IMG/VR virus record: IMGVR_UViG_3300018071_000003
Span: 1 to 50,944 of that record
Source: a virus
Taxonomy: Duplodnaviria > Caudoviricetes
Direction: 5' to 3' (one strand)
DNA: 50,944 bases
Position 1 is the first letter of the stretch. Each line of letters begins with the position of its first letter. Made by a program: the position numbers and the translations under genes. The notes beneath the pieces are model-generated. The model saw nothing but the letters and a program-made list of their open reading frames with translations, was not told where the DNA came from and made no database searches. Shown one piece after another: positions 28,826 through 48,865 of this stretch.

Positions 28826-28854
28826 TTGACAAGATGTCATTTTCGTGATATAAT
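28826..28854 (+). promoter_or_regulatory. Sigma70 consensus promoter (divergent)
   Basis: TTGACA-17 nt-TATAAT. Confidence 0.8.
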
Positions 28855-28883
28855 AGATGTGTGTCAAATATAAAGGAGAGATA

Positions 28884-29366
28884 ATGACTCATACTGAAAG
28901 ACAACAAGTAATACAGAAGTTAATTACAAAAGGATGTACAATGAAAGAAATTGGTAGAGCTATTGGTGGTGTATCAAGACAACGTGTGTATCAATTACTT
29001 ACAAAATATAATATACCAATACTAAATCGGAAAAACCATGGATTTTGGAAACAACAACCTATTCAAGCCAAATGGCTTTGGAAAATTATATGTAGTAAAA
29101 AATTAGAGAAACATATTAAATGGGAACTCTTTCAATATTTAAGTTCTAAATTTCCAACACATTGTCCAATTTTTAATTTAGAATTAGATTATTCTAATGG
29201 TACCAAAACTCGCAGAGATAATAGTCCCTCTATAGACCGAATAGATTCATTTAAACCTTATAGTGTAACTAATGTTCATATTATTAGTTGGAGAGCTAAT
29301 AGAATCAAAAATGATGGAACATCCGAAGAACATAGACGCATTGCTGACTACCTCTTGTCACAATAA
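28884..29366 (+). CDS. HTH + HNH-like endonuclease
   Basis: N-terminal HTH (MKEIG...VSRQRVYQLL); C-terminal CPIF...PSIDRID...Y...NVHIISWRANRIK; AAAGGAG SD before ATG 28884. Confidence 0.75.
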   Translation: MTHTERQQVIQKLITKGCTMKEIGRAIGGVSRQRVYQLLTKYNIPILNRKNHGFWKQQPIQAKWLWKIICSKKLEKHIKWELFQYLSSKFPTHCPIFNLELDYSNGTKTRRDNSPSIDRIDSFKPYSVTNVHIISWRANRIKNDGTSEEHRRIADYLLSQ

Positions 29367-29368
29367 AT

Positions 29369-29397
29369 TTGACAACTATAATAAAAAGGAGTATAAT
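29369..29397 (+). promoter_or_regulatory. Sigma70 consensus promoter with no clear downstream gene
   Basis: TTGACA-17 nt-TATAAT. Confidence 0.7.
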
Positions 29398-29553
29398 GTA
29401 GTTATAACAGGGCAAAGATATATAACAAAGAACAAAGATATAATATATAATATAGTTGTAGTTGTTTTATGTTTATACCGTCTTAAGATGGTGGCAAACG
29501 GCCCACCCCAAACCCCTTCTCGTAACCCCTCCATTAGACGCTTTCATTAATCC

Positions 29554-29586
29554 TGTGCGAGCTGCGGTTGCTTCCTAGCGAGCACA
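29554..29586. other. Hairpin with tandem G.A mismatch (copy 1)
   Basis: TGTGC-GA-GCT...AGC-GA-GCACA. Confidence 0.5.
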
Positions 29587-29775
29587 AAAGTTCCGTTCAG
29601 TTCAATATAATGTATATATTAAATAAATTAATATTATAAGAGATACTCCCCTAAGTTTAAAAATAGCTCAAACTATTGTTTACATGTATGAACCAAATTC
29701 CCATGGGGCCAATTTTCCCCCCATCCCCCCTTGAGAAAGGGAAAAAGAAAATCTGCCCTCTGGGCAATTACCTAG

Positions 29776-29792
29776 ATGAGAATGATTCTCAT
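29776..29792. promoter_or_regulatory. Fur-box-like palindrome
   Basis: ATGAGAAT-G-ATTCTCAT; perfect inverted repeat, 13/15 match to the 7-1-7 Fur core TGATAATNATTATCA. Confidence 0.55.
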
Positions 29793-29890
29793 TACCTCGA
29801 CGAAGATCATGCTGCGGTATTCACACTCCATCCATTCAATACCTTACAACTATGTCAGGCTACCAGAATGCCCTTGTAACAGAGCGCCTG

Positions 29891-29904
29891 GTCATACGTA
29901 TGAC
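29891..29904. promoter_or_regulatory. Palindromic operator-like motif, copy 1
   Basis: GTCATACGTATGAC; related copies at 30998 and 31124. Confidence 0.55.
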
Positions 29905-29945
29905 AAGGTCACAGCCTACGACAACTTCATCCCAGGCCAAACCCA

Positions 29946-30006
29946 TTCCTGAAAAGGGAAGATGAACAGAAACACACGCTCTCTATTGAACTTTCCTGAA
30001 AAGGGA
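29946..30006 (+). repeat. 14-bp direct repeat TTCCTGAAAAGGGA (29946-29959, 29993-30006)
   Basis: Exact duplication; each copy is also a quasi-palindrome. Confidence 0.65.
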
Positions 30007-30013
30007 GTATCAT
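29986..30013 (+). promoter_or_regulatory. Probable early sigma70-type promoter
   Basis: TTGAAC-16 nt-TATCAT upstream of the first early gene. Confidence 0.45.
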
Positions 30014-30223
30014 ACGGGTAGTGGGTAGATAAGCAGGTTCACGGGCAAGGCTGGCGCGGGATACGTAGCTACTCTCGCGGGAAGTCCCCAGCGATGCCCC
30101 TACTCCGAAGCAAGCCTTGGCCCATGCGCATCCGCACGCAGGCACGCTACCATCTGCCTCTGCTCCCATCCTCGCGCTATCCCGGTCAACCAAGGTCAAC
30201 CCTCACAATCAAAGGTGAACACA

Positions 30224-30913
30224 ATGGCGAAAGCCAACAGGAAACAGAAAGCGCAGGAACAGCCCGAGGTGAACGTGCTTCAGGCTGCGCTACAGCAGGC
30301 CCTAGACGCTCCAGCTACGGTCAAGGCTGCCCCAGTAGTCAACATGCAGCCTCAGCCCGATCTGCAAGCCGTGAACGTGTTCGTAGTGGTTGGCGGAACG
30401 TCGTCCAAGCCTGTTCTCACGGACGCGAAAGTTCATCCCGCCATCACGGCGGAGCAGCTCAAGAAGTACGGCGCAAGCCGCAAAGATGTGACGCAAGGTC
30501 TTTCCCTGAACTTGATGGCTGGTACGAAGTTGGAGTCCTCCATCCTGAACAGGGATAACGACCTCTGGGCGGAGCGTAGTCTGCGGACGGACAAGGCCGC
30601 GTTCTTTCACTTGACCGAATCCGAAGGCGGGAGCAAGATGTTCTGCACCGCGTGGGCACTCGACATCGCCGAACGCAAGCGCTACGACGCGCCGACTCTC
30701 CAGACTCTCTGGCGCGCAGTAAGGCGCTACAAGGTCGCAGGCGGAGAGATGGAAGCCCGTCTCAGCCCGATGGAGAAGTTCGCCCGTGCGCTGCTTGAAG
30801 TGATCGACAATCCCGACATGCAGTCGGGCGCGAAAATCGCTTCTCTCAGACAGAGCGTGTTTGCGAAAGCGAATATCGAAGGGGTTGTCATCCCCATCGC
30901 CAAGCAGGCGTGA
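30224..30913 (+). CDS. First early protein, GC-rich, function unknown
   Basis: ATG at 30224 after AAAGGTG; strong G/C third-position bias; followed by a terminator. Confidence 0.8.
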   Translation: MAKANRKQKAQEQPEVNVLQAALQQALDAPATVKAAPVVNMQPQPDLQAVNVFVVVGGTSSKPVLTDAKVHPAITAEQLKKYGASRKDVTQGLSLNLMAGTKLESSILNRDNDLWAERSLRTDKAAFFHLTESEGGSKMFCTAWALDIAERKRYDAPTLQTLWRAVRRYKVAGGEMEARLSPMEKFARALLEVIDNPDMQSGAKIASLRQSVFAKANIEGVVIPIAKQA

Positions 30914-30920
30914 CCCTTCA

Positions 30921-30951
30921 AAGCCTACCCTAACCCGGTAGGCTTTTTTTT
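30921..30951 (+). terminator. Rho-independent terminator
   Basis: GCCTACC / GGTAGGC stem followed by T8. Confidence 0.85.
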
Positions 30952-30997
30952 GTCCTCAAAACCCCTATTCCCAATAGGGGCATAAAACTACTCATCA

Positions 30998-31013
30998 TGT
31001 CATAAGTATGACA
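30998..31013. promoter_or_regulatory. Palindromic operator-like motif, copy 2
   Basis: TGTCATA-AG-TATGACA. Confidence 0.55.
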
Positions 31014-31028
31014 AAAATCATCAATCCC

Positions 31029-31041
31029 TAACTCATTGATA
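31029..31041 (-). promoter_or_regulatory. IHF consensus site
   Basis: Minus strand TATCAATGAGTTA matches WATCAANNNNTTR; abuts the -35 element. Confidence 0.5.
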
Positions 31042-31044
31042 CTA

Positions 31045-31073
31045 TTGACTTTCTTCCAAAAGTGTGCTATAAT
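31045..31073 (+). promoter_or_regulatory. Strong early sigma70 promoter
   Basis: TTGACT-17 nt-TATAAT with extended -10 TG. Confidence 0.8.
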
Positions 31074-31123
31074 GGGGGACATAATAGGATGATATTGTCT
31101 TATTGTGGCCGAATTGTCATTGT

Positions 31124-31138
31124 GGCATAAGTATGACA
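31124..31138. promoter_or_regulatory. Palindromic operator-like motif, copy 3
   Basis: GGCATAAGTATGACA (one change from copy 2). Confidence 0.5.
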
Positions 31139-31144
31139 AATTTC

Positions 31145-31596
31145 GGGTGCTCTCTAAAAACTCGGGTCTATTCCAGGTTAAACTAGGGATAGACAACAAA
31201 GCCCTTACGCGCAATCCGTAAGGCGTCAAGTAGGACGGCTAATAGTCGGCCCCAAGCCGATGTATAGGCCAGCTATACTTGTCGTGATCCGGTGCTGGAA
31301 ATCCTCCCCACATCGCCAAAACCTAGGTGTAATTCCCTAACAATCGAAAGAATTGGAATTAGGGTTATAATTCCTAGGCAATAGCCGACAAGCTACGTAG
31401 CAGCCTCCCCCTCGCCCGATTACCGGCCCACGTACCTTGACTAAGTCTAAACAGGCAATCCCGCCAACGATAGATAACGGGATAACGGGCCTCCAAAACC
31501 CAATTGCGAATGTCTTGTTTAAGACCCATCCCGCTAACACCCACACAGGACTGGAAACAATCCAGCGCGGAATCCGTCTATTCGGAAAAGCACCTA
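31145..31596 (+). ncRNA. Candidate large structured ncRNA / structured leader (~450 nt)
   Basis: More than 10 nested helices including long-range closing pairs; no credible ORF; downstream of a consensus promoter. Confidence 0.6.
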
Positions 31597-31615
31597 GGCA
31601 AATGAAAGGAAAATT

Positions 31616-31705
31616 ATGAGCACAATCGGTTTTATCTATTATCGTAAGCGTGGCTGGTCGAGAGCAAAGATTCATCCTGTCTGCCGCGGTATCTGGCAAC
31701 GGTAG
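31616..31705 (+). CDS. Small basic early peptide (29 aa, not in ORF track)
   Basis: GAAAGGA SD; MSTIGFIYYRKRGWSRAKIHPVCRGIWQR. Confidence 0.45.
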   Translation: MSTIGFIYYRKRGWSRAKIHPVCRGIWQR

Positions 31706-31789
31706 TTCCCAAGCTTGGGTGCTTCTCCGAGTAGACCAAAAGGAGCTCAATTTGGAGCGACACTTGTTTACTCGTTTTAAGGAGGTTTT

Positions 31790-31987
31790 ATGCATCCAGA
31801 AATTGAAGCAATGTTAGATGATTTGCAGGCTTTATGCGCAAGGCATAACCTGCATTGGGCGCACATGGTAGATCCTGACACAGGTAAGACCGGCGTACTC
31901 CTCGCCCACGCCAAGTCTGTCCCTTCCATGAAATATATGGAATTGTTGGGCCTCATTGATCCAATTGCTCCACAGGAACTTCAATGA
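31790..31987 (+). CDS. Early hypothetical protein
   Basis: Perfect TAAGGAGGT SD. Confidence 0.7.
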   Translation: MHPEIEAMLDDLQALCARHNLHWAHMVDPDTGKTGVLLAHAKSVPSMKYMELLGLIDPIAPQELQ

Positions 31988-32271
31988 ATAACTCCAACGG
32001 AATTGAAGTTGGTGATTTAGTTGTAGTTTATAAGTTGCCTTCGTGTAAATGTCCACAGTCTCTTGGTCTCTTTGGCCAGGTACTTGCCTTACGACATGTA
32101 GGAAAAGCCTCCTGTGCTCATTGTGGTGCCGAGCGAGAACCGGCTTTAGTGGCGTTTGGAATAACCGAGGATGGTTGTGGAATTGAGGCATATCGCCTCA
32201 AAAAAATCCCTCCCATCGAAGTTCTTGATGAACTCATTTTAGAAGAGGAGTTTTACGACGAAAATGTATAA
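31984..32271 (+). CDS. Early hypothetical protein, SH3-like with Cys pairs
   Basis: IEVGDLVVV, CxC and CxxC, LKKIPP; ATGA coupling. Confidence 0.65.
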   Translation: MNNSNGIEVGDLVVVYKLPSCKCPQSLGLFGQVLALRHVGKASCAHCGAEREPALVAFGITEDGCGIEAYRLKKIPPIEVLDELILEEEFYDENV

Positions 32272-32458
32272 ACTTGAAGTAGTGCCACATCAAAGTGGTT
32301 CATTTAGATATAGTGTGTGTTATTGCCCTAACGATAACTTGGAAATTGAGGTTTCAAGTGGATTTCGTTCTTCTGAAGCACAGGCGCACCGTGACGGTGC
32401 TGAGGAATTGAAGTTTGCTAAATTGTTCAATTTAGGAAAAGAATACTCCCGTGAATAA
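32264..32458 (+). CDS. Early hypothetical protein
   Basis: GAGGAG upstream; overlap coupling. Confidence 0.6.
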   Translation: MYKLEVVPHQSGSFRYSVCYCPNDNLEIEVSSGFRSSEAQAHRDGAEELKFAKLFNLGKEYSRE

Positions 32459-32852
32459 AACATTCGCCAAGCAAGCCCATCTGTTCGCTCATCGTAAGGC
32501 AGGAGCGCAGCACAGATTCGAGAAGCTATATGTCGAGTTGAAAGCACAGGTTGAAATGGCTTGGACTTCGGATTTGATGAAGCTTGAGGCAGAATTCAAA
32601 CTTACCTCGAAATCCAATCAGGCTTTGGCTTTCACCAAGACCAATCGTATCCGCGAAATGGCGGAGAAAACTGCTCGTGAAGTTATGCGGACAGTGTTCA
32701 ACGAGTGGCGTCAAGAAATTAACCGCATTGTTTCAGACCTAGGCGGTTATCCCCAAGAGGATGGCAACATTCTCTTTCCAGATGCATCCATTGCCAAGAT
32801 GCCTAAAGGTTTGTGGATTGCACCAGAAAATCTTCTTAAATTAGCAGCATGA
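32451..32852 (+). CDS. Early hypothetical helical protein
   Basis: 133-aa ORF, coupled. Confidence 0.65.
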   Translation: MNKTFAKQAHLFAHRKAGAQHRFEKLYVELKAQVEMAWTSDLMKLEAEFKLTSKSNQALAFTKTNRIREMAEKTAREVMRTVFNEWRQEINRIVSDLGGYPQEDGNILFPDASIAKMPKGLWIAPENLLKLAA

Positions 32853-33001
32853 TTTCCGTTTTAAGTTTTGTTATGTATTTTATTGCAGGTGTCCTTATTG
32901 GTTTTATCGCTCCATCAGCATTTGGAAGCGAAGGATGGAAATTTTGGTGTGGAATATTAGCATGTGTATTAGTGCTGTTTGCTAAGAAGTTGGCAGCATG
33001 A
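32849..33001 (+). CDS. Small two-helix membrane protein (50 aa, not in ORF track)
   Basis: MISVLSFVMYFIAGVLIGFIAPSAFGSEGWKFWCGILACVLVLFAKKLAA; ATGA coupling at both ends. Confidence 0.65.
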   Translation: MISVLSFVMYFIAGVLIGFIAPSAFGSEGWKFWCGILACVLVLFAKKLAA

Positions 33002-33171
33002 AGTGTGTGGCTTGTGGTACATTAATGTTAAATGATTTTTGGTGTTCTGAATGTGGTTATGATCAAGGAATTACAGTAAAATTAGAGCCTAGAAATCAAC
33101 AATGTAATTATCCTGAATGTGAATGTAATTCTGCTTGTTTAGGCTTGTTGGATGATTCAAAAGGTGGGTAA
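32998..33171 (+). CDS. Small Cys-rich zinc-binding protein (57 aa, not in ORF track)
   Basis: MKCVACG...WCSECG...CNYPECECNSAC. Confidence 0.6.
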   Translation: MKCVACGTLMLNDFWCSECGYDQGITVKLEPRNQQCNYPECECNSACLGLLDDSKGG

Positions 33172-33194
33172 AAAAGCCACTTGTCCGATTAAAA

Positions 33195-33557
33195 ATGTCT
33201 TACTCTGTCTTGAAGGGTAAAGTAACACCATCTGACGTTGCTCCTCCAGAAGAAAAACCAGAAGCGGAGCCTTCTAGCGGAAAATGTCCTCACGGCTATT
33301 ACCTCCAAACTGCCTGTTGGCATTGCCAACCCCAACTTGATACACTACTTTATGCTGATATTCCGGCGTACTCAGCCTTGAAAGTTGGCGATGTAGTATG
33401 TCGTCGTATTAGACCTGATGAACGTGGTGTTGTGTCATCCATTGTTTATAAATGGACAGATTCAGTTCATATGAAAGATATTTGGGTAGATTTTTGTAAT
33501 AGAGGAAGATCAACACCTTACACGCCCGATGAACTACTGAAGGTAAAAGTACAATGA
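33195..33557 (+). CDS. Early hypothetical protein (CPHG/CWHC plus SH3-like domain)
   Basis: LKVGDVV...GVV...Y..DEL. Confidence 0.6.
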   Translation: MSYSVLKGKVTPSDVAPPEEKPEAEPSSGKCPHGYYLQTACWHCQPQLDTLLYADIPAYSALKVGDVVCRRIRPDERGVVSSIVYKWTDSVHMKDIWVDFCNRGRSTPYTPDELLKVKVQ

Positions 33558-33754
33558 TGCAGCATAATACACACGTCGTAATTAAGACATTGCCAGATTC
33601 TGTTATGGATGTGTTCTGGGGCATAGGATGGGACAATTGGAGTAGATGTCGTCTTATCTCAAGTCCGAAGCCAGACTTTGTGCATATGGCTGGTATTAAG
33701 CTACCATTTTACGTTCGCATTGCACTTGCTCGTTATCTGAGGTTAGATAAATGA
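33554..33754 (+). CDS. Early hypothetical protein
   Basis: DVFWG.GWDNWSR motif; coupled. Confidence 0.6.
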   Translation: MMQHNTHVVIKTLPDSVMDVFWGIGWDNWSRCRLISSPKPDFVHMAGIKLPFYVRIALARYLRLDK

Positions 33755-33993
33755 AACCCTCTTGTTTAAACTTAGATGCTAAACAAACAAACGTTTTGAA
33801 AAAGTTTGTTAAATCTTTGAATAAACATAAATTAGCAGAATTATATGAAGAAACTTGTTCGATGGATGGACCAGTATTCCATTGTTATTCATCAGGACTG
33901 GGTGATGTTATATATGTAGAAATCTTAGGAAGGATTTGTCATTTAGAATATGATGATGATGGTAGAATAATCGGTGAAGTAAACTATGCGTAA
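33751..33993 (+). CDS. Early hypothetical protein
   Basis: Coupled ORF. Confidence 0.55.
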   Translation: MKPSCLNLDAKQTNVLKKFVKSLNKHKLAELYEETCSMDGPVFHCYSSGLGDVIYVEILGRICHLEYDDDGRIIGEVNYA

Positions 33994-34330
33994 ACTATAT
34001 TTAGTTTTAGAAACAACTAAGCTTGCTGTTCCTCCTGTGCCACATCCTCGCGCACCAAGAGCCCCGGAGGAGCAGGCTATTCGTCCACGCGCTGCTGATC
34101 GTCAAAGGCAGCCTGAGCCTGATGACGAACGATTTGAAATACATCAAAATGTTGACATAATCGTTTGCTATTCGATGCCTGAAGCTGAAGAATACATTGA
34201 TCAGCAACTTGAGCGACAGCCTCAATATAAGTTTATAATTTTTGAATCAATTGCTTTCCTTGAGACTGTTGCCTCTCCCACAATTCGTAAACTTTGGGAT
34301 GCCAACGGCCAACTAGTGGAGACAAGATAA
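33986..34330 (+). CDS. Early hypothetical protein
   Basis: Coupled ORF, Pro-rich linker. Confidence 0.55.
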   Translation: MRKLYLVLETTKLAVPPVPHPRAPRAPEEQAIRPRAADRQRQPEPDDERFEIHQNVDIIVCYSMPEAEEYIDQQLERQPQYKFIIFESIAFLETVASPTIRKLWDANGQLVETR

Positions 34331-35065
34331 TTGGGACATGATTTTTGTCGTGCGCATTATCGAATTAAACATGAACAAGAAGACTCATGGCTTCAACCTC
34401 ATACCCAGTCTTGTTATTCTGAAGTTCGTGTCAATTATAATGCTGTTGCAATTCGGGTTAAATATATTCCAACTTTTAAGGGGACACCGGGGACACGTGG
34501 TAGTATATATCCGTGCCAGTTAACTCCTGCTAAAGCCGAAAGATTTATTAGTGATGTCTTGGAAATTTGTCCGGGAGTAGCAACTCGCGTAGATGAATAT
34601 GTGTTTGAATTTCCTCTCGGCACTTGGCCAAACTATTGGAAGTTTCTTGGGGTTGCTTCCCTTTTACGTTATATTGAAGAGTGGTGGATGTGGGTTGATC
34701 ATTATTTTGAAATGGTTGACAGCGGAATTCCAAAAGATGTTGCTGCAATTTGTATGGGACTTTATGATAAAGACAGTGTGGTGCTTTATTGTGGACACGC
34801 ATTTAATGGAACCTTGTCTGATTTAGCAAGTTTGAAAGATTTTAATTTAAAAGATGTATTCTTAAAATCTTGTGAAACTGCAACATCGCACTCAACTATA
34901 TGGCACCTGTTAAACCAACGTCCTTGGTTTACTGTTGGTGAGTACAATTTCGCCGACTGGTTCAAAATGACACCACAAATATATAAAATCTTTGTGAATG
35001 ACTCTTCGATTAAAGAAAAACAACAAGCACTTGGTATGCTTCATGTATACAAGGCACTTTTATGA
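34331..35065 (+). CDS. Hypothetical protein heading the ligase cluster
   Basis: 244-aa ORF coupled to the glutamine amidotransferase gene. Confidence 0.6.
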   Translation: MGHDFCRAHYRIKHEQEDSWLQPHTQSCYSEVRVNYNAVAIRVKYIPTFKGTPGTRGSIYPCQLTPAKAERFISDVLEICPGVATRVDEYVFEFPLGTWPNYWKFLGVASLLRYIEEWWMWVDHYFEMVDSGIPKDVAAICMGLYDKDSVVLYCGHAFNGTLSDLASLKDFNLKDVFLKSCETATSHSTIWHLLNQRPWFTVGEYNFADWFKMTPQIYKIFVNDSSIKEKQQALGMLHVYKALL

Positions 35066-35742
35066 AACTAGTCAGTGCAATTTATAAAGACTGGTATCCA
35101 TTTGATAAGATGTTTCAACAACTAAAAGTTGGATTCCATCCCATCCAACTTGACGGAGCTTCGGCGTTGTTGTTGTGGGGTGGCGAAGACATTAGCCCAT
35201 CTATTTATAGACAGAAGTGTCCGAAAATTGTTTATTCCGGTCCAGACGAGCCATCTGTTCGTGACTTAATAGAAATTGCTTTAGCCAAAGAAGCGATCCG
35301 TCTCGGCATTCCAATCATTGCAATTTGTCGAGGCGCACAACTCATGTGTGCATTATCGGGCGGAAGTTTATTCCAGCATGTGACACATCATGACGGTCCA
35401 TCTCATGTCTGTCAAACCGATGAAGGAGGAGAAATTGTGTCTAATTCAGTGCATCATCAGATGATGAATGTGGAGAAAACAAACTATCATCGAATCGCGT
35501 GGATTGAGCCTGGCATCAGTAGCGTGTACATAAATGGGGATGGGCCTATTGAGGATCATCCTAAGTTTGAACCTGAAATTGTCTATTTTCCCGAGACAAA
35601 AGCCCTTTGTATTCAAGGGCATCCAGAGTATATGGAAGAAAAGAATCCATTCGTGAAATATTGCTTAGAACTAGTTGATAAATATGTTCTGTCGAACGTA
35701 GTCTTAAACAAGACAGATGAAAATGAACACCATCGGAGCTGA
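35062..35742 (+). CDS. Class I glutamine amidotransferase / peptidase C26-like
   Basis: GGEDI.P, ICRGAQ nucleophile elbow, NSVHHQ, QGHPE catalytic His-Glu. Confidence 0.9.
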   Translation: MKLVSAIYKDWYPFDKMFQQLKVGFHPIQLDGASALLLWGGEDISPSIYRQKCPKIVYSGPDEPSVRDLIEIALAKEAIRLGIPIIAICRGAQLMCALSGGSLFQHVTHHDGPSHVCQTDEGGEIVSNSVHHQMMNVEKTNYHRIAWIEPGISSVYINGDGPIEDHPKFEPEIVYFPETKALCIQGHPEYMEEKNPFVKYCLELVDKYVLSNVVLNKTDENEHHRS

Positions 35743-36487
35743 TCCCGAGCTGTTCTTGCAAGATAAGTCAGGTAAGTTTATATCGGCAGTTGGGAAATTC
35801 GGCGGCACAAAAGAACAACCACGCCCGCTGCTTAACATTCCCGGTTATATGGTGCAGGAAGATAATGTAGCGGTGGAGTTTAATATTCCACCTTGTGAAA
35901 TTGGAAACTCTCACAACTTTTCCCAGTCAATTGCAATTGCGATGAATGCACTTGAGCAAGAAGCACATGCGCTCAAGCTTAAGCTTGTTGTTGTAGCATC
36001 TGCTGAGTTCGAAGCTGATCAACTTGTAGCCCCACAAGCTAGGCGATTTGGGTGTGATCCTGATTTCAATGTGTGGTCGTTGAAGGTAAATCCTCCGCCT
36101 CGTGCAAAGAACAAAGCACTACGTTCTTGCGGCGGACATGTCCACTTTGGAGGAAGGTTTACAGATAAAATTGGTTTTGGTCGGGCGTGTGATTTATTTA
36201 TGGGATGCCCAAGTATTTTATTTGACCCAGATCAAAATAGACGACTCTTGTATGGTAAAGCTGGAGCAATTAGATACAAACCATACGGAATTGAGTATAG
36301 AACCCTATCCAATTTTTGGGTTAAATCAGAGGAATTGTCTGCTATGATTCACGATCAAGCAGTGAAGGTCTTTAATTTCAGGAAGGTAATTCCTGATGAG
36401 GATGGGCGTGCAATTATTAAGTGCATCAATGAAATGGATCAAAATTTACTACGAGAACTCACTGAAAAATATGGATTAATTTATTGA
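35717..36487 (+). CDS. phiEco32-type COOH-NH2 ligase (type 2)
   Basis: IGADPELF, QEDNVAVEFNI, FGCDPD, CGGHVH, RR.LYGKAG..R.KPYGIEYRTLSNFW. Confidence 0.9.
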   Translation: MKMNTIGADPELFLQDKSGKFISAVGKFGGTKEQPRPLLNIPGYMVQEDNVAVEFNIPPCEIGNSHNFSQSIAIAMNALEQEAHALKLKLVVVASAEFEADQLVAPQARRFGCDPDFNVWSLKVNPPPRAKNKALRSCGGHVHFGGRFTDKIGFGRACDLFMGCPSILFDPDQNRRLLYGKAGAIRYKPYGIEYRTLSNFWVKSEELSAMIHDQAVKVFNFRKVIPDEDGRAIIKCINEMDQNLLRELTEKYGLIY

Positions 36488-37117
36488 ATGGATAACCTCG
36501 AAGATTTTCATCAGAAATATCACAACACTTGGGTTCAATATCGTTCTGATGGTGTGTTGTCTCCAGCTCTAATTGAATTGATACAATTTGGTGAAAAATT
36601 AATATATATTCGTAGTTTGGAACTTGGAATAGTGTCGATTAAATATACAGAAAACCAATTGAAAGAGAAATTAGAACTATCACCGCCCCAAACCGGGTAT
36701 TTCAATTATAATGGGCACGCACTTGTCTTATTCAAGATTCCCGTAAGACAGTGGCGTGTCGGGCTTTGTCATGAAAATCATGAAATATACAATCCTTTCA
36801 AATACCTGTTGAATTCCGGAGTTTATCGTCCAACCTTCGGAGAAAGAACAGTAAGCGCTTTATTCAATCCAGCTTACATTCCTGACCCTCAAATAGCTTA
36901 TTCTATGTTTAATAAGAGCACTCATTCCGTTGCTCTTTCATGCCATCTTATGATTTCTAAATCACCTACAGAGAAACATTCAGGGCCACTTATCTGGTTT
37001 GATTGTAATCCATGTGGATTTATCCAAAGATCAAAATTTGTAGTCGAGGATGAATTATTTCGACAGGAAATTGAAGATGAATTACATCGCCTTGGACAAG
37101 AGAAATGGATTTTTTAG
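36488..37117 (+). CDS. Hypothetical protein within the ligase cluster
   Basis: P..GYFN...KIPVRQWRVGL motif; abuts both neighbours. Confidence 0.65.
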   Translation: MDNLEDFHQKYHNTWVQYRSDGVLSPALIELIQFGEKLIYIRSLELGIVSIKYTENQLKEKLELSPPQTGYFNYNGHALVLFKIPVRQWRVGLCHENHEIYNPFKYLLNSGVYRPTFGERTVSALFNPAYIPDPQIAYSMFNKSTHSVALSCHLMISKSPTEKHSGPLIWFDCNPCGFIQRSKFVVEDELFRQEIEDELHRLGQEKWIF

Positions 37118-38133
37118 CACACCTTGTTAAAGATTATGGAGGTCGTTGGAATGATCTTGCCCGGCTAAGTTATCCATTTGAAGATTATATGAAAGCAATT
37201 CCAGTTGCTAGCTATAAACCATTTGAAATGGTGCGTCCTCGTTTGAAAATAGGTATTGAAGTAGAAGTAGAAAAGGTAGCTCATCATCTAGGTGTGAATA
37301 TGGCCAATGAAATGTGGATGACACGAGAGGATGGTTCTCTCAGACAAGGTGGAATCGAATTCGTCTCTATTCCAATTGCAGATCAACAAATTCCTTGGGC
37401 CATTCACTATTTATTCGATCAATATTTACCTAAAGACGCTGATTTCTCAGCCCGCACATCTATTCACGTCCACGTGAATGTCCGTAATTGGTCATGTAAG
37501 GAGATTTTGAATTTGATTTTGTTATACATTGTGTTTGAACGGTTGTTATATCGTTTTGCAGGACCACAACGCTATCAAAACATTTTCTGTGTGCCTATTC
37601 GAGAAACAAAACTGCCAATTGTATTATCAAATTATTTAGCAAATGGAAATTTTCAAGGTTTGCTAGAATCTTGGACTAAATATAGTGGACTTAATTTAGT
37701 ACCTATTCGTAAATTTGGGACAGTTGAATACAGGCATATGCGTGGACACCGTAACACTGAATATCTTTTAAATTGGATTAATGTTATTCAGCAACTTCAC
37801 AAAACAGCATGTAACGTAGATTTTATTGAATTATTTGATGAAATTAAAATGTTAAATACAACTTCTTCGTATGAACAATTTCTTATGAATACATTCAAAG
37901 ATCAATCTGTGTTTCTACTTGGTAAATGTAGTTTACAACGAGAAATGGAATACGGAGTTTCTATAGTAAAAAGTATTCAACCACCATCGCAATTTATTAA
38001 AAAACTACTTAATGACATTTCAAATGAATCCGACTTGCTTCAAAGTTTGAAAATAATTGATAAACAAACTAAAAAAGATATTAATTACTATGCCCCTGGG
38101 GTTTGGGATGTCATTGATGGAGTAGTAAGATAA
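37105..38133 (+). CDS. Putative amidoligase (glutamine-synthetase/COOH-NH2 ligase fold)
   Basis: IGIEVEVE, DGSLR..GIEFVS, RTSIHVHVN, KYSGLN, GTVEYRH. Confidence 0.85.
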   Translation: MDFLAHLVKDYGGRWNDLARLSYPFEDYMKAIPVASYKPFEMVRPRLKIGIEVEVEKVAHHLGVNMANEMWMTREDGSLRQGGIEFVSIPIADQQIPWAIHYLFDQYLPKDADFSARTSIHVHVNVRNWSCKEILNLILLYIVFERLLYRFAGPQRYQNIFCVPIRETKLPIVLSNYLANGNFQGLLESWTKYSGLNLVPIRKFGTVEYRHMRGHRNTEYLLNWINVIQQLHKTACNVDFIELFDEIKMLNTTSSYEQFLMNTFKDQSVFLLGKCSLQREMEYGVSIVKSIQPPSQFIKKLLNDISNESDLLQSLKIIDKQTKKDINYYAPGVWDVIDGVVR

Positions 38134-39570
38134 ATGTGTGGAATTGTAGGGCTTGTAACTAAATCAACTAATGGTTGTACTGCTTTTCAGCAGGAACTAT
38201 TTGCTGAAATGTTAGTGTGTGATGCAATTCGTGGAGAGGATTCCACAGGTATTTTCGCAGTTAATAATTCCGGAAACGTCACTTACATTAAACTTGCAAG
38301 TCATCCTTTTAATCTTCTTAAGACCAGCGAATATCTAACATTAAAACAGGATTCTTGGAACTCTGGACGTATCTTGGTTGGTCACAATCGGAAGGCATCA
38401 AGTGGAGCAATTTCTAACGAAAATGCACACCCATTTGCATTTGGGCCTATTGTTCTTGTTCATAATGGGTTCATTGATAATTTTCGTAGTCTCGTTCATC
38501 ACAAAGAACGTGAGAAGAACAATATTGAAGTAGATTCTCATGCATTAACGTCTTTGTTGGCGCGCAATGATCCAATGAAAATTATTCCTGAATTGAAGGG
38601 AGCTTTCGTTATCATATGGTATAACGCAACAGAGAAAAAACTATATTTTGTTCGCAACACAGAACGTCCGTTTTCTTTAGTAGATATAAATGATGGAATT
38701 TATTTTGCGTCGGAAAAAGGAATGCTTCGATGGCTCTTGCATCGTCATCAAGCTAAAGCCGAAATTGCAGAAATAAAACCCGGTGTCTTACTTTCCTTAG
38801 ATGAGAATAATGTTTGGGAAAACAGGCCCGTTAAGCTTTATGAGAAACCTGCGGTGTTTGTTCCTAAAGAATATGCTCCACCAGCAACAAATGGAGAGAT
38901 AGTTTATCTCCCTAACCAAATTAAGCAAGTTCCCAAAACAATTGACATGAAACTTGAGGAATCATTTAATATCCATTATGGTGATGATCATGATGTTGAT
39001 TTGACTAATGCACCACCCTTTCCACAAATTGTATTCTCTGTTGACGACTACAAGAAAGTCTCTGAAGACCACGTAAATCCTCCTGTATGGAGACTGTGGG
39101 GCAAGGCACTAGACTCGGAACAAATTGATGTCTATTGTCAATTTAGAGGAACAGAAACACAATGTGACGAATATGCCTATCAGGCATTTTTAACAGGGCA
39201 CATTAGTAGGGTCTCCGATAGAATTATCAATAATCAACAGGGTCAGGCTGTTTACTGTCTGCATCCGAAACTATGCGAAATTACAGCAACGTCAGATAAT
39301 TTCGCAATTACCACAGAGCATTTAGCATATTTGCAGAATAAATCTAAATGCACTTGTGGGCATGTGGAAATTTCGACTATGAATGATGAAGACAAGGTAG
39401 TTATGAGACTTGGATTTGAAACTCAGATAACCTGTAAATGGTGTTTAGTAAATACTCCAGAGTGTAAAGAATTGTGTAAAGAGCCAGGGCAATGTCAATA
39501 TTGTGTGGGTGAAAAACAAAAGGAAGAAGGTGAAAAGCTTAAGAATATTGCCGTACAAGCCAGGAAGTAA
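38134..39570 (+). CDS. Class II (Ntn) glutamine amidotransferase with C-terminal extension
   Basis: N-terminal MCGIVG, RG.DSTG, GHNR, NAHPF, HNG, VDS; Cys-rich C-terminal tail. Confidence 0.9.
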   Translation: MCGIVGLVTKSTNGCTAFQQELFAEMLVCDAIRGEDSTGIFAVNNSGNVTYIKLASHPFNLLKTSEYLTLKQDSWNSGRILVGHNRKASSGAISNENAHPFAFGPIVLVHNGFIDNFRSLVHHKEREKNNIEVDSHALTSLLARNDPMKIIPELKGAFVIIWYNATEKKLYFVRNTERPFSLVDINDGIYFASEKGMLRWLLHRHQAKAEIAEIKPGVLLSLDENNVWENRPVKLYEKPAVFVPKEYAPPATNGEIVYLPNQIKQVPKTIDMKLEESFNIHYGDDHDVDLTNAPPFPQIVFSVDDYKKVSEDHVNPPVWRLWGKALDSEQIDVYCQFRGTETQCDEYAYQAFLTGHISRVSDRIINNQQGQAVYCLHPKLCEITATSDNFAITTEHLAYLQNKSKCTCGHVEISTMNDEDKVVMRLGFETQITCKWCLVNTPECKELCKEPGQCQYCVGEKQKEEGEKLKNIAVQARK

Positions 39571-40369
39571 GTCCGCTAGAGCCATTGCTAAGGCGCTCAA
39601 TGGATTGAGAGTTAGATTCAATGGTTTGTTCCGCCCAAAACTTAAACATCTTGTGGTCAATTGGGGTAAGGTAGCCAAGCCTAGGTGGTGGATTACCGGA
39701 TTGAATGATCCTGCGAAAGTGCAACTATCATCAAACAAGCTAACGGCATTGTCGTGTTTAAGACAAGCAGGAGTTTCCACACCGGAGTTTACTGATGACA
39801 TTCAAACAGCGCGTCAATGGTGGTTGTCCGGATCAGTTGTTGTCGGACGACAGATTTTAAATGGTCACGGAGGTATAGGATGTATTATTTTTCATAAAGA
39901 TCGAGACGACGTTGACGGTGGGTTTGACGGAGAACCACGAGATTGTCCTTTGTATACTAAACACCTACGTCATAAACGTGAATTCCGCATTCATGTCTTT
40001 AAAGGACAAATAATTGACCAAGTTGAAAAGCTCAAAAAGAAAGGATTTGAAAACCGTAACTCATGGATCAGGAACTACAATAATGGATATGTCTTTGTAC
40101 GTGGCGGTGTTGTCATTCCCAAATGCGTACGAATGGAAGCACTTCAAGCTGTCCAAGCCCTACAGCTTGACTTCGGGGCAGTCGATGTGGCGTATCGTGA
40201 AAAAGAAGACAAAGCCTACGTGCTAGAGTGCAACACAGCACCGGGTATTGAAGGGCAAACAATTAGGAGCTACATTGAAGCAATTAGACAAGAACTTCAA
40301 AGGAAGGTAAAATCCAATCATGGTAACCACTTTATTCATCTTCTTAGTATTCAACGGAGAAAAAAATAA
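39530..40369 (+). CDS. ATP-grasp ligase (RimK-like, phiEco32 type)
   Basis: VNWG, NKL..L..L, EFRIHV, WIRN...G, LDFGAVDV, VLECNTAPG; probable GTG start 39530. Confidence 0.85.
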   Translation: MKSLRILPYKPGSKSARAIAKALNGLRVRFNGLFRPKLKHLVVNWGKVAKPRWWITGLNDPAKVQLSSNKLTALSCLRQAGVSTPEFTDDIQTARQWWLSGSVVVGRQILNGHGGIGCIIFHKDRDDVDGGFDGEPRDCPLYTKHLRHKREFRIHVFKGQIIDQVEKLKKKGFENRNSWIRNYNNGYVFVRGGVVIPKCVRMEALQAVQALQLDFGAVDVAYREKEDKAYVLECNTAPGIEGQTIRSYIEAIRQELQRKVKSNHGNHFIHLLSIQRRKK

Positions 40370-40392
40370 ATGACTCGTATTATAGAGGATGT

Positions 40393-40617
40393 ATGCGCTG
40401 CGTAGCTTGTGACTGTGAATTGAAAGAGCATGAATCCAAACGAAAAGGATTGTTCAGCCGTGAATACATTGATCTGTGTGACGCCTGTTTCGTAACAATT
40501 GCCGATGATTTTCCTCTGGCCACTGGCAATGATGCAGTGGATGACGATTTACGGAAAGAATATTCCAACCCCACCAGCCCCACTTGGGAAGATGACAGCA
40601 ACGAAAATTTCGATTAA
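40393..40617 (+). CDS. Small zinc-finger protein
   Basis: MRCVACD...DLCDAC, acidic tail; GAGG SD. Confidence 0.7.
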   Translation: MRCVACDCELKEHESKRKGLFSREYIDLCDACFVTIADDFPLATGNDAVDDDLRKEYSNPTSPTWEDDSNENFD

Positions 40618-40888
40618 ATGTCGAAAATGTGACAAAGAGATTTATTTCAGCAGCTTTCAATATAATGCAAAAGCCTGCAATAGGAAGAAGTGTTGGATTA
40701 GAACACAGAAGGCTCGCAATGAAGCAGCTCTTTTGAAAGGATGCAACGCTGATGATTTTCTGTTTCCACTTACAGGTAAAATTGTAATAGTTGAAGAAAC
40801 CAAAGTAGTCAATGAGAATCGATATGCAGAAGGTAAAATAATGAGGGATGGAAAGTGGGTCTATCCTGTTGATTATTATGGTGATTAA
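40592..40888 (+). CDS. Cys-motif hypothetical protein
   Basis: CRKC...CNRKKC; likely ATG at 40592. Confidence 0.55.
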   Translation: MTATKISIKCRKCDKEIYFSSFQYNAKACNRKKCWIRTQKARNEAALLKGCNADDFLFPLTGKIVIVEETKVVNENRYAEGKIMRDGKWVYPVDYYGD

Positions 40889-41607
40889 TGAGCGAATTTG
40901 TCAGACATGAAAACTGCCCCTATTGTAACAGCCGCGATAATTTGGCTCGTTACGATGATGGTCACGGCTATTGTTTTGGCTGCCATTACACTGAACCAGC
41001 TACCGAAAAATGGTTAGGTCACAAACCCGTCTTAAAGGTGCTAACAACCCTTCGGGCATTGCCAGACGACGCAAAGCCTCAAATCGGGGCAACCGGGTGG
41101 ATGTGGCTCAAGAAGTATGGTATAATCGAAACCGAGACCTCGGGCTTTCTCTGGAGCGACTCAAAGCAATGGCTGATTTTTACCTTCAAAGATGGTAATG
41201 GAACTATCATCGCTTGGCAAGCTCGTAACTTCAACAAAGATCGTCCTAAACCCAAGTACCTTAGCTACGGCCCCATTGGCGACATCTTGGTGGAGTTTGG
41301 GGAAGGCAATTGTTGTGTACTTACCGAAGACGTAATTTCTGCAATAAAGGTAGGTAGAAGCACTGGGGTAGTTGGGGTACCTCTCTTTGGCTCAGGAATA
41401 CCCCTAAAACTGCTCACAAGGCTCTACAGGCTCTTTAAAACAGTGGGTATATGGCTAGATAGCGACAAGACTAGAGAATCGCTCCTAGCGCGTTCTAGAG
41501 CCAACCAATATTTCCCTCACGTATTTACCATATTAACTGAGAAAGACCCCAAGGAGTACAGCGATGAGGCAATTAACGAGAAAATATGTAATTCTATGGA
41601 AATTTAG
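40888..41607 (+). CDS. DNA primase (Zn ribbon + TOPRIM)
   Basis: CPYC.S.DNL..Y.DGH.YCFGC; WQARNF; KY; LTEDVISAIK; WLDSD; DPK. Confidence 0.9.
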   Translation: MSEFVRHENCPYCNSRDNLARYDDGHGYCFGCHYTEPATEKWLGHKPVLKVLTTLRALPDDAKPQIGATGWMWLKKYGIIETETSGFLWSDSKQWLIFTFKDGNGTIIAWQARNFNKDRPKPKYLSYGPIGDILVEFGEGNCCVLTEDVISAIKVGRSTGVVGVPLFGSGIPLKLLTRLYRLFKTVGIWLDSDKTRESLLARSRANQYFPHVFTILTEKDPKEYSDEAINEKICNSMEI

Positions 41608-41610
41608 TTC

Positions 41611-41639
41611 TTGACAGTCTTTTAAATATATGTTATAAT
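41611..41639 (+). promoter_or_regulatory. Sigma70 consensus promoter for helicase/polymerase operon
   Basis: TTGACA-17 nt-TATAAT with extended -10 TG. Confidence 0.85.
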
Positions 41640-41712
41640 TATATTATGAAAAGGGCGAAGGTAAATGAAATGAAAGGGCTCTGGTAATAGTATATATATA
41701 TATAATAAAGAA

Positions 41713-41731
41713 GTGCGAGCTGTCCGAGCAC
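41713..41731. other. Hairpin with tandem G.A mismatch (copy 2)
   Basis: GTGC-GA-G-CTGTC-C-GA-GCAC, just after (TA)7 at 41691-41704. Confidence 0.45.
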
Positions 41732-41744
41732 GGAGGTAATAACA

Positions 41745-42986: not shown

Positions 42987-43024
42987 GCTAGTTGTAATTC
43001 TCGTTACTTTAATGAGTGTCAAGA

Positions 43025-43396
43025 ATGATTGAAGCTGCTCTCCTCTGCCTAGCCCTCAATTTATATCATGAGGGCGCGAAGGAGGAGCCATTACCCGGAC
43101 TATTTGCCATTGCTCAAGTAACTCTCAATAGGGCACAGCGTAATCCAGATAAAGTCTGTGAGGTGGTACAGGAATATAAGCAATTCTCATGGACATTGCG
43201 TCCTCCCAAGGTAGAAGAAGGTCCAGCATGGAGGCGTGCGCAGGATGTAGCTAAGTTATCTTTAAGTACGAATGATTTTACTGGAGGAGCAACCCACTTC
43301 GCAGCAATTTATGTAAATCCCTATTGGAAATCTGATATGACAATTCTTGGACAATGGGGATCTCACATCTTTTATAAACAGAAAAGAAAAAAATGA
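43025..43396 (+). CDS. SleB/Hydrolase_2-like cell wall hydrolase
   Basis: CLALNLYHE, V..NR, CEVV...QFSW, GATHF, P.W, G.HIFY. Confidence 0.85.
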   Translation: MIEAALLCLALNLYHEGAKEEPLPGLFAIAQVTLNRAQRNPDKVCEVVQEYKQFSWTLRPPKVEEGPAWRRAQDVAKLSLSTNDFTGGATHFAAIYVNPYWKSDMTILGQWGSHIFYKQKRKK

Positions 43397-44363: not shown

Positions 44364-44366
44364 GGA

Positions 44367-45062: not shown

Positions 45063-45067
45063 GACTG

Positions 45068-48095: not shown

Positions 48096-48097
48096 GG

Positions 48098-48841: not shown

Positions 48842-48865
48842 AGTTAGCTATAAGGAAAAAAATAT

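What the first reader, a model, noticed from the sequence alone, without database searches (positions are those of the whole stretch)
31145..31596. Candidate novel ~450-nt multi-domain structured RNA at the start of the early region
Seen: a gene-free stretch after a consensus promoter (31045-31073) is almost fully covered by nested pairings. Long-range helices: GGTGCT(31146)/AGCACC(31589), GTCAAG(31225)/CTTGAC(31436), CGGCTA(31236)/TAGCCG(31382) and GTCT-AAACAGGCA(31445)/TGTCTTGTTT-AAGAC(31511). Local hairpins: GTCTATTCC/GGGATAGAC, CCTTACG/CGTAAGG, TCGGC/GCCGA, GTATAG/CTATAC, a long arm CCTAGG..CCCTAA..CAAT-C-GAAA-G..TTAGGG..CCTAGG capped by a GNRA loop, ATCCCG/CGGGAT, CTGGA/TCCAG and TCCG/CGGA. 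G.U pairs favour the plus strand. I do not recognise tRNA, tmRNA, RNase P or group I core motifs. Inference: an early large ncRNA that could act as a ribozyme, a decoy for host defence or RNA-binding proteins, or a put-like antiterminator for the long early operon.
Basis: partly seen in the sequence, partly recalled or inferred. Interest (0 to 1): 0.85.

Follow-up and report, generated by a model that had tools for sequence, protein, structure and literature searches.

The report
Long untranslated phage early-operon leader
A roughly 700-base untranslated stretch at the start of an uncultured phage's early genes folds partly into stable hairpins, but it has no relatives anywhere, so it looks like a regulatory leader and cannot be shown to be a new large functional RNA.

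Summary
The promoter is real-looking (TTGACT-17-TATAAT with TG, 31045-31073), and the stretch is non-coding by every test I ran. The claimed closed 450-nt multi-domain architecture does not hold. Long-range 6-bp helices are at chance level (18 observed, 13.3±4.9 in shuffles). Two claimed helices have pairing probability of about 0. The "closing" helix GGTGCT/AGCACC falls to probability 0 once flanking sequence is included. It is replaced by a 24-nt duplex (31576-31599 with 31713-31736, 23 of 24 pairs), the best duplex of that length in the genome.

The non-coding unit is about 709 nt (31081-31789) and has three parts:
- a plus-strand-specific hairpin module (31140-31400);
- an unstructured C-rich tract (31400-31575), part of the longest C>G run in the plus-strand-transcribed part of the genome (28800 to the end);
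- the long duplex.

It is flanked by palindromic operators that occur only in this region. Rfam gives nothing. No homolog was found in any collection, so covariation cannot be tested.

Best reading: a cis-acting early-operon leader, with a candidate RNase III site and a rut-like tract. A discrete trans-acting ncRNA is not excluded, but nothing supports it. Interest is low to moderate.

The parts
29891..29904 (.). Operator-like palindrome O1 (GTCATACGTATGAC), at the 5' edge of the GC-rich block that holds ORF232
   Evidence: the motif GTCATAMGTATGAC (up to 2 mismatches) occurs at only three places in the 50.9-kb genome, all in this region. 0 of 100 shuffles reach the observed 6 strand-matches. 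family D1.
30920..30946 (+). Intrinsic terminator after ORF232. It insulates the leader's promoter from upstream transcription.
   Evidence: 10-bp stem plus T-run. (z -4.74 for window 30850-30999). (a weak match to the terminator part of GlmZ, 26.7 bits, far below the gathering score of 60).
30999..31012 (.). Operator-like palindrome O2, about 75 nt upstream of the predicted transcription start
31045..31073 (+). Sigma-70-type early promoter, TTGACT-17-TATAAT with extended -10 TG. The start is predicted near 31079-31081.
   Evidence: 11 of 12 consensus positions. The start position is inferred from the usual spacing and was not measured.
31094..31126 (.). Two direct repeats, ATTGTC(T)TATTGTGGC and ATTGTCATTGTGGC, in the initial transcribed region
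   Evidence: Read directly. Not tested statistically.
31124..31137 (.).
31081..31789 (+). Whole untranslated leader (about 709 nt) of the early operon.
   Evidence: Codon log-odds of all internal ORFs is 0.03 or lower. Whole-leader z is -3.13 on plus and -2.08 on minus, from 20 shuffles. GC is 0.474 against a genome value of 0.426.
31140..31400 (+). Structured 5' module: hairpins 31166-31194 and 31203-31223, a branched region 31224-31285, and the long GAAA-capped arm 31322-31378
   Evidence: z -3.68 on plus (0 of 150 shuffles reach it) and -2.28 on minus; z -3.19 and -3.46 on plus against -1.28 and -1.12 on minus. P>=0.9 for the hairpins; 5 of 170 genome windows reach z <= -3.19.
31400..31575 (+). 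C-rich, G-poor, thermodynamically unstructured tract (rut-like) with one small hairpin at 31458-31483
   Evidence: z -0.02 on plus. C/G ratio 1.3-2.07; 31340-31607 is the longest run with C/G > 1.25 on the plus strand from 28800 to the end. The median C/G there is 0.82.
31576..31599 (+). 5' arm of the 24-nt long-range duplex.
   Evidence: pair I3. (P about 1.0 with flanks). (23 of 24 WC/G.U pairs, the best in the genome on either strand). (z -3.87).
31618..31707 (+). 29-codon ORF with an AGGA Shine-Dalgarno, lying wholly inside the 113-nt loop of the duplex. Probably not a gene; possibly a leader peptide.
   Evidence: codon score -0.435, the lowest of all ORFs tested. Position read.
31713..31736 (+). 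3' arm of the 24-nt duplex
31790..31987 (+). First convincing early gene (65 aa), preceded by AAGGAGG
   Evidence: codon score 0.214, within the gene range. Ribosome-binding site read.

Best explanation
The finding is the central part of a roughly 709-nt untranslated 5' leader (31081-31789) of the phage's early operon. A strong sigma-70 promoter transcribes it. Palindromic operators bracket that promoter at about -75 and +50.

The leader is not one closed 450-nt fold. It has three modules:
1. a plus-strand-specific cluster of hairpins (31140-31400);
2. an unstructured, untranslated C-rich tract (31400-31575);
3. a 24-nt near-perfect duplex (31576-31599 with 31713-31736) that loops out 113 nt.

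The most likely function is control of early-gene expression in cis. The long duplex is a candidate RNase III processing site that would sever the leader from the mRNA, as in the lambda N leader and T7 early RNA. The C-rich tract is a candidate Rho loading site that would attenuate transcription before the first gene. The 5' hairpins would protect or time the transcript.

Shown: the promoter consensus, the non-coding nature, local structure above chance, the strand bias of modules A and D, the composition, and presence in an RNA library. Inferred: actual cleavage, Rho action, and any regulatory consequence.
For: - Promoter and upstream terminator.
- Operators occur only in this region.
- Non-coding.
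- No plus-strand terminator inside the leader, so transcription should run into the early genes.
- Segment z-scores, plus/minus: A+B -3.68/-2.28, C -0.02/-1.42, D -4.0/-2.55.
- Local complementary 6-mers: 15 against 4.65±2.67 (2 of 500 shuffles reach 15).
- The duplex has 23 of 24 pairs. That is the top 24-nt duplex with span up to 300 nt in the whole genome on both strands. It exceeds the 22-nt minimum RNase III target size stated in PMC5371410, which also lists lambda, T7 and T3 RNAs as RNase III targets (passages read).
- The C-rich tract meets the published rut description: unstructured, ribosome-free, C>G, at least 70-80 nt (PMC6407284, passages read). It lies in the longest C/G>1.25 run of the plus-strand-transcribed part of the genome.
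- Contigs of an RNA library cover 31094-31318 and 31304-31572.
- Two related phages also carry long, stable leaders after a similar promoter, without sequence similarity. L005 has 325 nt with z -3.51. L002 has 676 nt with z -3.97 from 20 shuffles.
Against: - No homolog exists to test conservation or covariation, so function at the RNA level is unproven.
- The rut criterion is unspecific. RhoTermPredict,930 sites in E. coli, and 29.5% of this phage's plus-strand 78-nt windows have C/G > 1.
- Ensemble diversity is not lower than in shuffles for any segment: z from -1.32 to +1.09 on the plus strand.
- Windows as stable as module A occur elsewhere in the genome (5 of 170).
- DNA can be present in an RNA library, and contigs show neither strand nor ends.
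- A more distant relative, MW202796.1, has only about 310 nt between its divergent modules, so a long leader is not a fixed trait of the group.
- The host is unknown, so the presence of RNase III and Rho is assumed.
Confidence: 0.45

Rival explanations
1. One reading: a discrete, novel large structured ncRNA of about 450-500 nt. It would be released from the early transcript and act on its own, as a ribozyme, a decoy for host defence or RNA-binding proteins, or an RNA-polymerase-modifying antiterminator.
For: - No Rfam family matches.
- GC is 0.502 against a genome value of 0.426.
- The 5' module has plus-strand-specific stability.
- RNA-library contigs span 31094-31572. That is close to the predicted start and to the 5' arm of the duplex, where cleavage could free a roughly 490-nt species.
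- Folded in isolation, a 7-bp helix joins the two ends.
Against: - Long-range helices are at chance level (93 of 500 shuffles reach the observed count).
- The closing helix has P=0 in context.
- The 3' third is unstructured (z -0.02).
- There is no terminator to define a 3' end.
- No homolog was found, so there is no covariation evidence.
- Terminator-like sites in the early operon are not in excess, 17 against 15.0±3.5, so a put-like element has nothing to read through.
- No ribozyme family matches, even at E<=10.
- Contig depth over the leader (3.35 and 4.7) is no higher than over the other pieces of the phage (2.3-4.6).
Confidence: 0.15
2. A DNA-level control region. The stretch serves mainly as binding sites and spacing for regulators, perhaps with replication initiation. 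On this reading the RNA hairpins are by-products of DNA palindromes.
For: - There are three copies of a 14-bp palindrome unique to this region, two of them bracketing the promoter 125 bp apart.
- Direct repeats lie at 31094-31126.
- The long arm 31322-31378 is built from self-complementary words (CCTAGG, AATT).
- CCTAGG occurs 3 times in the leader out of 9 in the genome.
Against: - The recognisable protein-binding motifs all lie upstream of 31140.
- Modules A and D are clearly more stable on the plus strand: -2.78 against -0.83, and -4.0 against -2.55.
- The duplex has 3 G.U pairs, which are mismatches as DNA or on the minus strand. It scores 23 of 24 on plus and 21 of 24 on minus.
- There are no iteron arrays or tandem repeats. 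TRF finds only three 15-17-nt micro-repeats.
Confidence: 0.25
3. A functionless spacer or decayed remnant. The region is leftover sequence, such as eroded early genes or a recombination scar, and its hairpins are fortuitous.
For: - The sequence is an orphan, as are the early genes next to it. ORF95 matches only itself among 5.8 billion proteins.
- The early region of this phage lineage is highly variable.
- The z-scores are moderate.
Against: - tblastx of the leader against 198 related or fetched loci (2.39 Mb) gives no hit at E<=1, so no gene remnant is detectable.
- The genome's best duplex, its longest C>G run and a top-3% stability window all lie within one 700-nt stretch directly after a consensus promoter. 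That coincidence is unlikely for junk.
- Phage genomes are compact, and this one keeps about 1.5 kb of non-coding DNA in 29400-31789.
Confidence: 0.15

Closest known systems
Phage lambda N-gene leader RNA and T7/T3 early RNA processing sites (RNase III substrates). Named in PMC5371410 (passages read). Details of their architecture are recalled, not checked here.
   Same: An untranslated RNA at the start of an early operon, transcribed by host RNA polymerase from a strong promoter. It carries a double-stranded stem long enough for RNase III (here 23 of 24 pairs) upstream of the first gene.
   Different: There is no sequence similarity and no family model to test. The leader here is far longer (about 709 nt). 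The duplex is formed by arms 113 nt apart rather than by a compact hairpin. Cleavage is untested.
Rho-dependent attenuators in 5' leaders (rut site plus pause), as described in PMC6407284 (passages read)
   Same: A tract of more than 78 nt that is C>G, unstructured and untranslated, followed by a strong structure that could pause RNA polymerase.
   Different: Only composition and predicted lack of structure are shown. The criterion is met by many sequences by chance. No 3' ends were mapped.
HK022 put antiterminator RNAs (recalled from memory, not checked in any call)
   Same: Two neighbouring stem-loops (31166-31194 and 31203-31223) lie in the early transcript downstream of an early promoter.
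   Different: put is about 70 nt and acts on terminators downstream. Here terminator-like sites in the operon are at chance level. The hairpins are part of a much longer leader, and no similarity could be tested.
Large ornate phage- or prophage-associated RNAs such as GOLLD and ROOL. The listing and start of the abstract of 10.1101/2024.12.08.627333 were seen. Their presence in Rfam is recalled.
   Same: A non-coding RNA candidate several hundred nucleotides long, in a phage genome, with GC above the genome mean.
   Different: No Rfam match at gathering score or at E<=10. There is no family of homologs and no covariation. A third of the region is unstructured, and the long-range helices are at chance level.

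Membership tests
Any Rfam 15 family (4227 models: ribozymes, riboswitches, introns, RNase P, 6S, large ornate RNAs and others) | Covariance-model score at or above the family's gathering score | tested here: not met
   0 matches in the whole window. (30900-31850, E<=10): 11 weak matches, none inside 31145-31596. (31080-31800, E<=10): 1 match, RNase MRP at 11 bits against a gathering score of 50.
tRNA / tmRNA | ARAGORN detection | tested here: not met
   0 genes in the window.
RNase III processing site (lambda N leader / T7 early RNA kind) | Double-stranded RNA of at least about 22 bp | tested here: met
   31576-31599 pairs with 31713-31736 at 23 of 24 positions, including 3 G.U. P is about 1.0. 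The size criterion comes from PMC5371410.
RNase III processing site (lambda N leader / T7 early RNA kind) | Staggered cleavage by RNase III in vitro or in vivo | not testable with these tools
   Needs an enzyme assay or RNA end mapping in rnc mutant and wild-type cells.
Rho utilisation (rut) site / Rho-dependent attenuator | At least 70-80 nt of C-rich, G-poor, unstructured, ribosome-free RNA | tested here: met
   C/G ratio is 1.3-2.07 over 31360-31600. It is the longest C/G>1.25 run of the plus-strand-transcribed part of the genome. z is -0.02. The tract is non-coding. The criterion has low specificity.
Rho utilisation (rut) site / Rho-dependent attenuator | Rho-dependent (bicyclomycin-sensitive) 3' ends downstream | not testable with these tools
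   Contigs cannot show RNA ends.
put-type / processive antiterminator RNA | A promoter-proximal structured RNA that is needed to read through terminators within the operon | tested here: inconclusive
   Two adjacent hairpins exist. Terminator-like sites in 31000-50944 number 17 against 15.0±3.5 in shuffles. Similarity to put could not be tested because no model or sequence was at hand.
Riboswitch / classical attenuator | An aptamer directly coupled to an intrinsic terminator or to a helix that sequesters the ribosome-binding site | tested here: not met
   No plus-strand terminator-like site lies in 31081-31789. The structured module ends about 390 nt before the first convincing gene. No riboswitch model matches.
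Conserved structured ncRNA (general criterion) | Homologs with compensatory base changes | not testable with these tools
   No homolog in the phage records, in 10 related IMG/VR records, in 198 fetched loci, or in metagenome or genome pattern scans.

The most novel reading that the evidence does not exclude
The early transcript is cut at the 24-nt duplex (or terminated by Rho just before it). This would release a stable, orphan RNA of about 490 nt (about 31081-31575). Its hairpin module would act in trans during host takeover, for example as a decoy for a host RNA-binding or defence protein. That would make it the first member of a new class of phage early ncRNAs.
Probability: 0.12. Interest if true: 0.6.

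Novelty: new member of a known kind. Interest (0 to 1): 0.3.

Why it matters
If the leader works as proposed, it would be an uncultured-phage example of early-gene control that layers four mechanisms: operator-flanked promoter repression, a 5' hairpin module, a Rho loading tract and an RNase III site. That is useful for understanding how phages time host takeover, but it does not change concepts. The practical value of this check is negative. The claimed nested 450-nt architecture comes from folding the stretch in isolation and from counting 6-bp complements that occur by chance. The one really exceptional structure, the genome's best 24-nt duplex, lies largely outside the reported coordinates. 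Without homologs or a host, the candidate cannot currently be raised to the level of a new RNA class.

Tried and rejected
Homolog searches, all negative:
- blastn (distant mode) of 30900-31800 against 50,697 phage records: no match.
- BLAST of 30950-31800 in 10 related IMG/VR records: 0 of 10.
- nhmmer against 23 terminase-based loci: none.
- blastn with word size 7 against the same loci: only chance-level pieces, plus the promoter and a weak match of 29634-29732 to L002.
- Neighbour-protein scans of viral contigs with ORF232, ORF133 and the 226-aa amidotransferase: no relatives.
- The ORF232+P0002 alignment in viral, metagenome and genome contigs: none confirmed.
- Exact-pattern scans:
  - the operator 15-mer gave 64 viral hits, all single and non-homologous by nhmmer;
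  - a loop 17-mer gave 12 viral hits, none homologous;
  - a 19-mer gave 0 hits in metagenome contigs;
  - an 18-mer gave 16 hits in genome contigs, none homologous.
- 80 loci carrying the amidoligase gene: no nhmmer hit for 29400-31800.
- All-against-all blastn of divergent regions: only L004 and L005 resemble each other, not the window.
- tblastx of the leader: nothing at E<=1.

The closest relative by terminase (72% identity, G001) lacks the part corresponding to window positions of about 31000-45000. G005's contig ends before it.

Sequencing runs:
- In the RNA run X4, no contig lay on 31573-32969. This comes from one study and from contigs only, so I do not count the stop at 31572 as evidence for an RNA end.
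- X5 (share 0.13) gave only 35-45-nt pieces with 4-9 mismatches, which is chance.
- X3 and X6 are at least 99% identical and add no variation.
- The single difference in X4 (G31234A) lies in a weak lone pair and is uninformative.

Other steps that led nowhere:
- An AlphaFold model of ORF232 had mean pLDDT 41.9 and was not searched further.
- A 15-nt complementarity of 31511-31525 to 35701-35715 has E 0.028 and was left as a note.
- Repeats of GGGTGCT and GTCTATTC (2 copies each in the genome) were considered as switch elements. By my own estimate, 7- and 8-mer repeats within 700 nt are expected by chance.
- I did not build a covariance model. A single-sequence model on an uncertain structure would add little beyond nhmmer.
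- Supplementary files of papers were not consulted.

Full report
Context. The window is a complete 50,944-bp virus record. Structural genes lie on the minus strand up to about 28.7 kb. Early and replication genes lie on the plus strand from about 28.8 kb. The finding sits where the plus-strand early operon begins. Upstream lie an HTH-HNH endonuclease gene (28857-29366), an 815-nt non-coding stretch, and a GC-rich orphan gene, ORF232 (30215-30913, GC about 0.59 against 0.43 for the genome). That gene ends in a strong terminator (30920-30946).

Checking the observation: what holds.
- The promoter 31045-31073 is TTGACT-17-TATAAT with an extended -10 TG, 11 of 12 consensus positions.
- The stretch is non-coding.
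  - Its internal ORFs score -0.44 to +0.03 on a codon log-odds scale. On that scale 26 training genes score 0.10-0.64 and the neighbouring small early genes score 0.21-0.34.
  - The longest overlapping ORF (152 aa, minus strand) has no Pfam or PHROG match and 0 homologs among 1.84 billion representatives.
  - The longest plus-strand ORF (60 aa) has no homolog.
  - The 29-codon ORF at 31618-31707 scores -0.435.
- The non-coding unit is therefore about 709 nt (31081-31789). It ends at the AAGGAGG-led gene at 31790.

Checking the observation: is the structure more than chance? Partly.
- Folded alone, the 452 nt give z -2.71 on the plus strand and -3.11 on the minus strand. There is no strand preference at that scale.
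- Perfectly complementary 6-mers at least 100 nt apart number 18, against 13.3±4.9 in dinucleotide shuffles (93 of 500 reach 18). The long-range helices are therefore what chance gives.
- Local 6-mers (no more than 60 nt apart) number 15, against 4.65±2.67 (2 of 500).
- Pairing probabilities:
  - The hairpins at 31166-31194, 31205-31221, 31322-31378 (GAAA loop) and 31458-31483 are robust.
  - GTCAAG/CTTGAC is moderate, at about 0.7.
  - CGGCTA/TAGCCG is 0.0 and GTATAG/CTATAC is about 0.01.
  - The closing helix GGTGCT/AGCACC is about 1.0 in isolation but 0.0 once 31081-31800 is folded.
- In context, AGCACC belongs to a 24-nt duplex, 31576-31599 with 31713-31736. It forms 23 of 24 pairs, 3 of them G.U, with P about 1.0.
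- A genome-wide scan shows this is the single best 24-nt duplex with span up to 300 nt on either strand. Its segment has z -3.87 to -4.0 on plus and -2.55 to -2.72 on minus.
- G.U counts among confident pairs do not favour the plus strand: 2 of 54 on plus, 7 of 64 on minus.

Anatomy. Segment analysis with 150 shuffles each splits the leader as follows, giving z on plus and then minus:
- A, 31140-31300: -2.78 / -0.83.
- A+B, 31140-31400: -3.68 / -2.28.
- C, 31400-31575: -0.02 / -1.42.
- D, 31570-31742: -4.0 / -2.55.

Against a genome background of 170 windows on the transcribed strand (mean z -0.37, sd 1.24), only 5 windows reach -3.19. Module A reaches -3.19 and -3.46 in the sliding scan.

Segment C is C-rich and G-poor, with a C/G ratio of 1.3-2.07. 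The run 31340-31607 is the longest stretch with C/G > 1.25 on the plus strand from 28800 to the genome end, where the median is 0.82.

The promoter is bracketed by two copies of the palindrome GTCATAMGTATGAC, at 30999 and 31124. A third copy lies at 29891. The motif occurs nowhere else in the genome, and 0 of 100 shuffles reach the observed count.

No plus-strand terminator-like site lies in the leader, so transcription should continue into the early genes.

Expression. Contigs of one metatranscriptomic run lie on 31094-31318 and 31304-31572, at least 99% identical. Other contigs of that run lie on other parts of the phage. This shows presence in an RNA library and nothing more. Contigs give no strand, ends or level.

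Relatives. No homolog of the leader was found by any route (84/85, 86, 87).
- The adjacent genes are orphans too. ORF95 matches only itself. ORF232 has one 43%-identical relative, whose contig could not be reached.
- The closest phage by terminase (72% identity) lacks this part of the genome.
- Two related phages carry analogous, non-homologous long leaders after a similar promoter. L005 has 325 nt with z -3.51. L002 has 676 nt with z -3.97 from 20 shuffles.
- A more distant relative has only about 310 nt between its divergent modules.
- Covariation, the decisive test, is therefore impossible at present.

Interpretation. The best-supported reading (0.45) is a cis-acting early-operon leader.
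- The 24-nt duplex exceeds the 22-nt minimum RNase III target size. RNase III is known to process lambda, T7 and T3 RNAs (PMC5371410, passages read).
- The C tract fits the published description of a Rho loading site (PMC6407284, passages read), although that criterion is unspecific.
- What the 5' hairpins do is inferred only.

Rivals:
- A DNA-level control region whose RNA folding is incidental (0.25). The plus-strand bias of A and D and the G.U pairs in the duplex weaken this.
It is not excluded, but its architectural arguments fail, and a put-like role lacks terminators to act on.
- A functionless spacer (0.15). The co-location of several genome-extreme features behind a consensus promoter weakens this.

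Comparison with known systems. The leader matches no Rfam family at gathering score or at E<=10 and is not a tRNA or tmRNA. It works most like the RNase III-processed leaders of lambda N and T7 early RNA, and like Rho-dependent leader attenuators. Membership in any sequence family cannot be claimed. The architecture of those examples, and of HK022 put, is recalled from memory and was not checked.

Verdict. Interest is 0.3. The most novel reading still open is a released trans-acting RNA of about 490 nt, at a probability of about 0.12.

Noticed in passing
window 29891-29904, 30999-31012, 31124-31137: Three copies of a 14-bp palindrome (GTCATAMGTATGAC) that occur nowhere else in the genome. Two bracket the early promoter 125 bp apart. 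The outer pair brackets the GC-rich ORF232 block. They are probably operators of an unidentified regulator.
   Followed up: partly
window 29900-30950: A GC-rich island (0.58-0.62 against 0.43 for the genome) holding orphan ORF232. ORF232 has one 43%-identical relative among 5.8 billion proteins, no Pfam or PHROG match, and an AlphaFold model with pLDDT 41.9. The closest relative, L002, has an unrelated GC-rich 254-aa ORF with its own long leader and terminator at the same position (L002 165-1640, minus strand).
   Followed up: partly
window 29400-30214: A second long non-coding stretch (about 815 nt) downstream of two consensus promoters (29355-29397). It carries a T/C-rich motif (TTTTCCCCCCATCCCCCC, about 29711) also seen in L002 (about 1288-1270) and L005 (about 8272-8255). 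It also carries a 14-mer, GTGCGAGCTGCGGT (29555), shared with L005 and L004. There is no folding excess (z about 0 to -0.7) apart from one window, 29650-29799 (z -2.6 on plus, -3.87 on minus), and no Rfam hit.
   Followed up: partly
window 31576-31599 / 31713-31736: The best 24-nt RNA duplex in the whole genome (23 of 24 pairs). It loops out 113 nt that contain a Shine-Dalgarno sequence and a 29-codon ORF ending 6 nt before the 3' arm. It could be an RNase III site, or a structure opened by translation of a leader peptide.
   Followed up: partly
window 31511-31525 and 35701-35715: A perfect 15-nt inverted match (E 0.028 in a search of the leader against the genome). The hairpin GTCTTGTTTAAGAC in the leader is complementary to the sequence just upstream of the start of the COOH-NH2 ligase gene (35717).
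   Followed up: no
window 35062-40369: An early gene cluster encoding glutamine amidotransferases, a COOH-NH2 ligase, an amidoligase and an enzyme like the ribosomal protein S6 glutaminyl transferase (PHROG matches, E from 7e-25 down to 6e-68). It is shared with at least 80 IMG/VR phage contigs.
   Followed up: partly
window 44367-47217: The DNA polymerase is encoded in at least three pieces (44367-45062, 45068-45565, 46477-47217). They are interrupted by a DNA-methyltransferase-like ORF (45589-46131) and an HNH endonuclease (46119-46493). No group I intron was reported by Rfam at gathering score.
   Followed up: no
L005 6385-6460 (minus strand): A tRNA-Met (CAT) gene lies in the early region of a related phage, directly after its 190-aa first early gene. 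The window itself has no tRNA.
   Followed up: yes
window 41611-41639 and 28826-28854, 29369-29397: Further perfect 12-of-12 sigma-70 consensus promoters on the plus strand. One lies ahead of the helicase/replication block and two lie in the AT-rich region (GC 0.25-0.35) before the leader. This suggests the phage relies on host RNA polymerase throughout.
   Followed up: no
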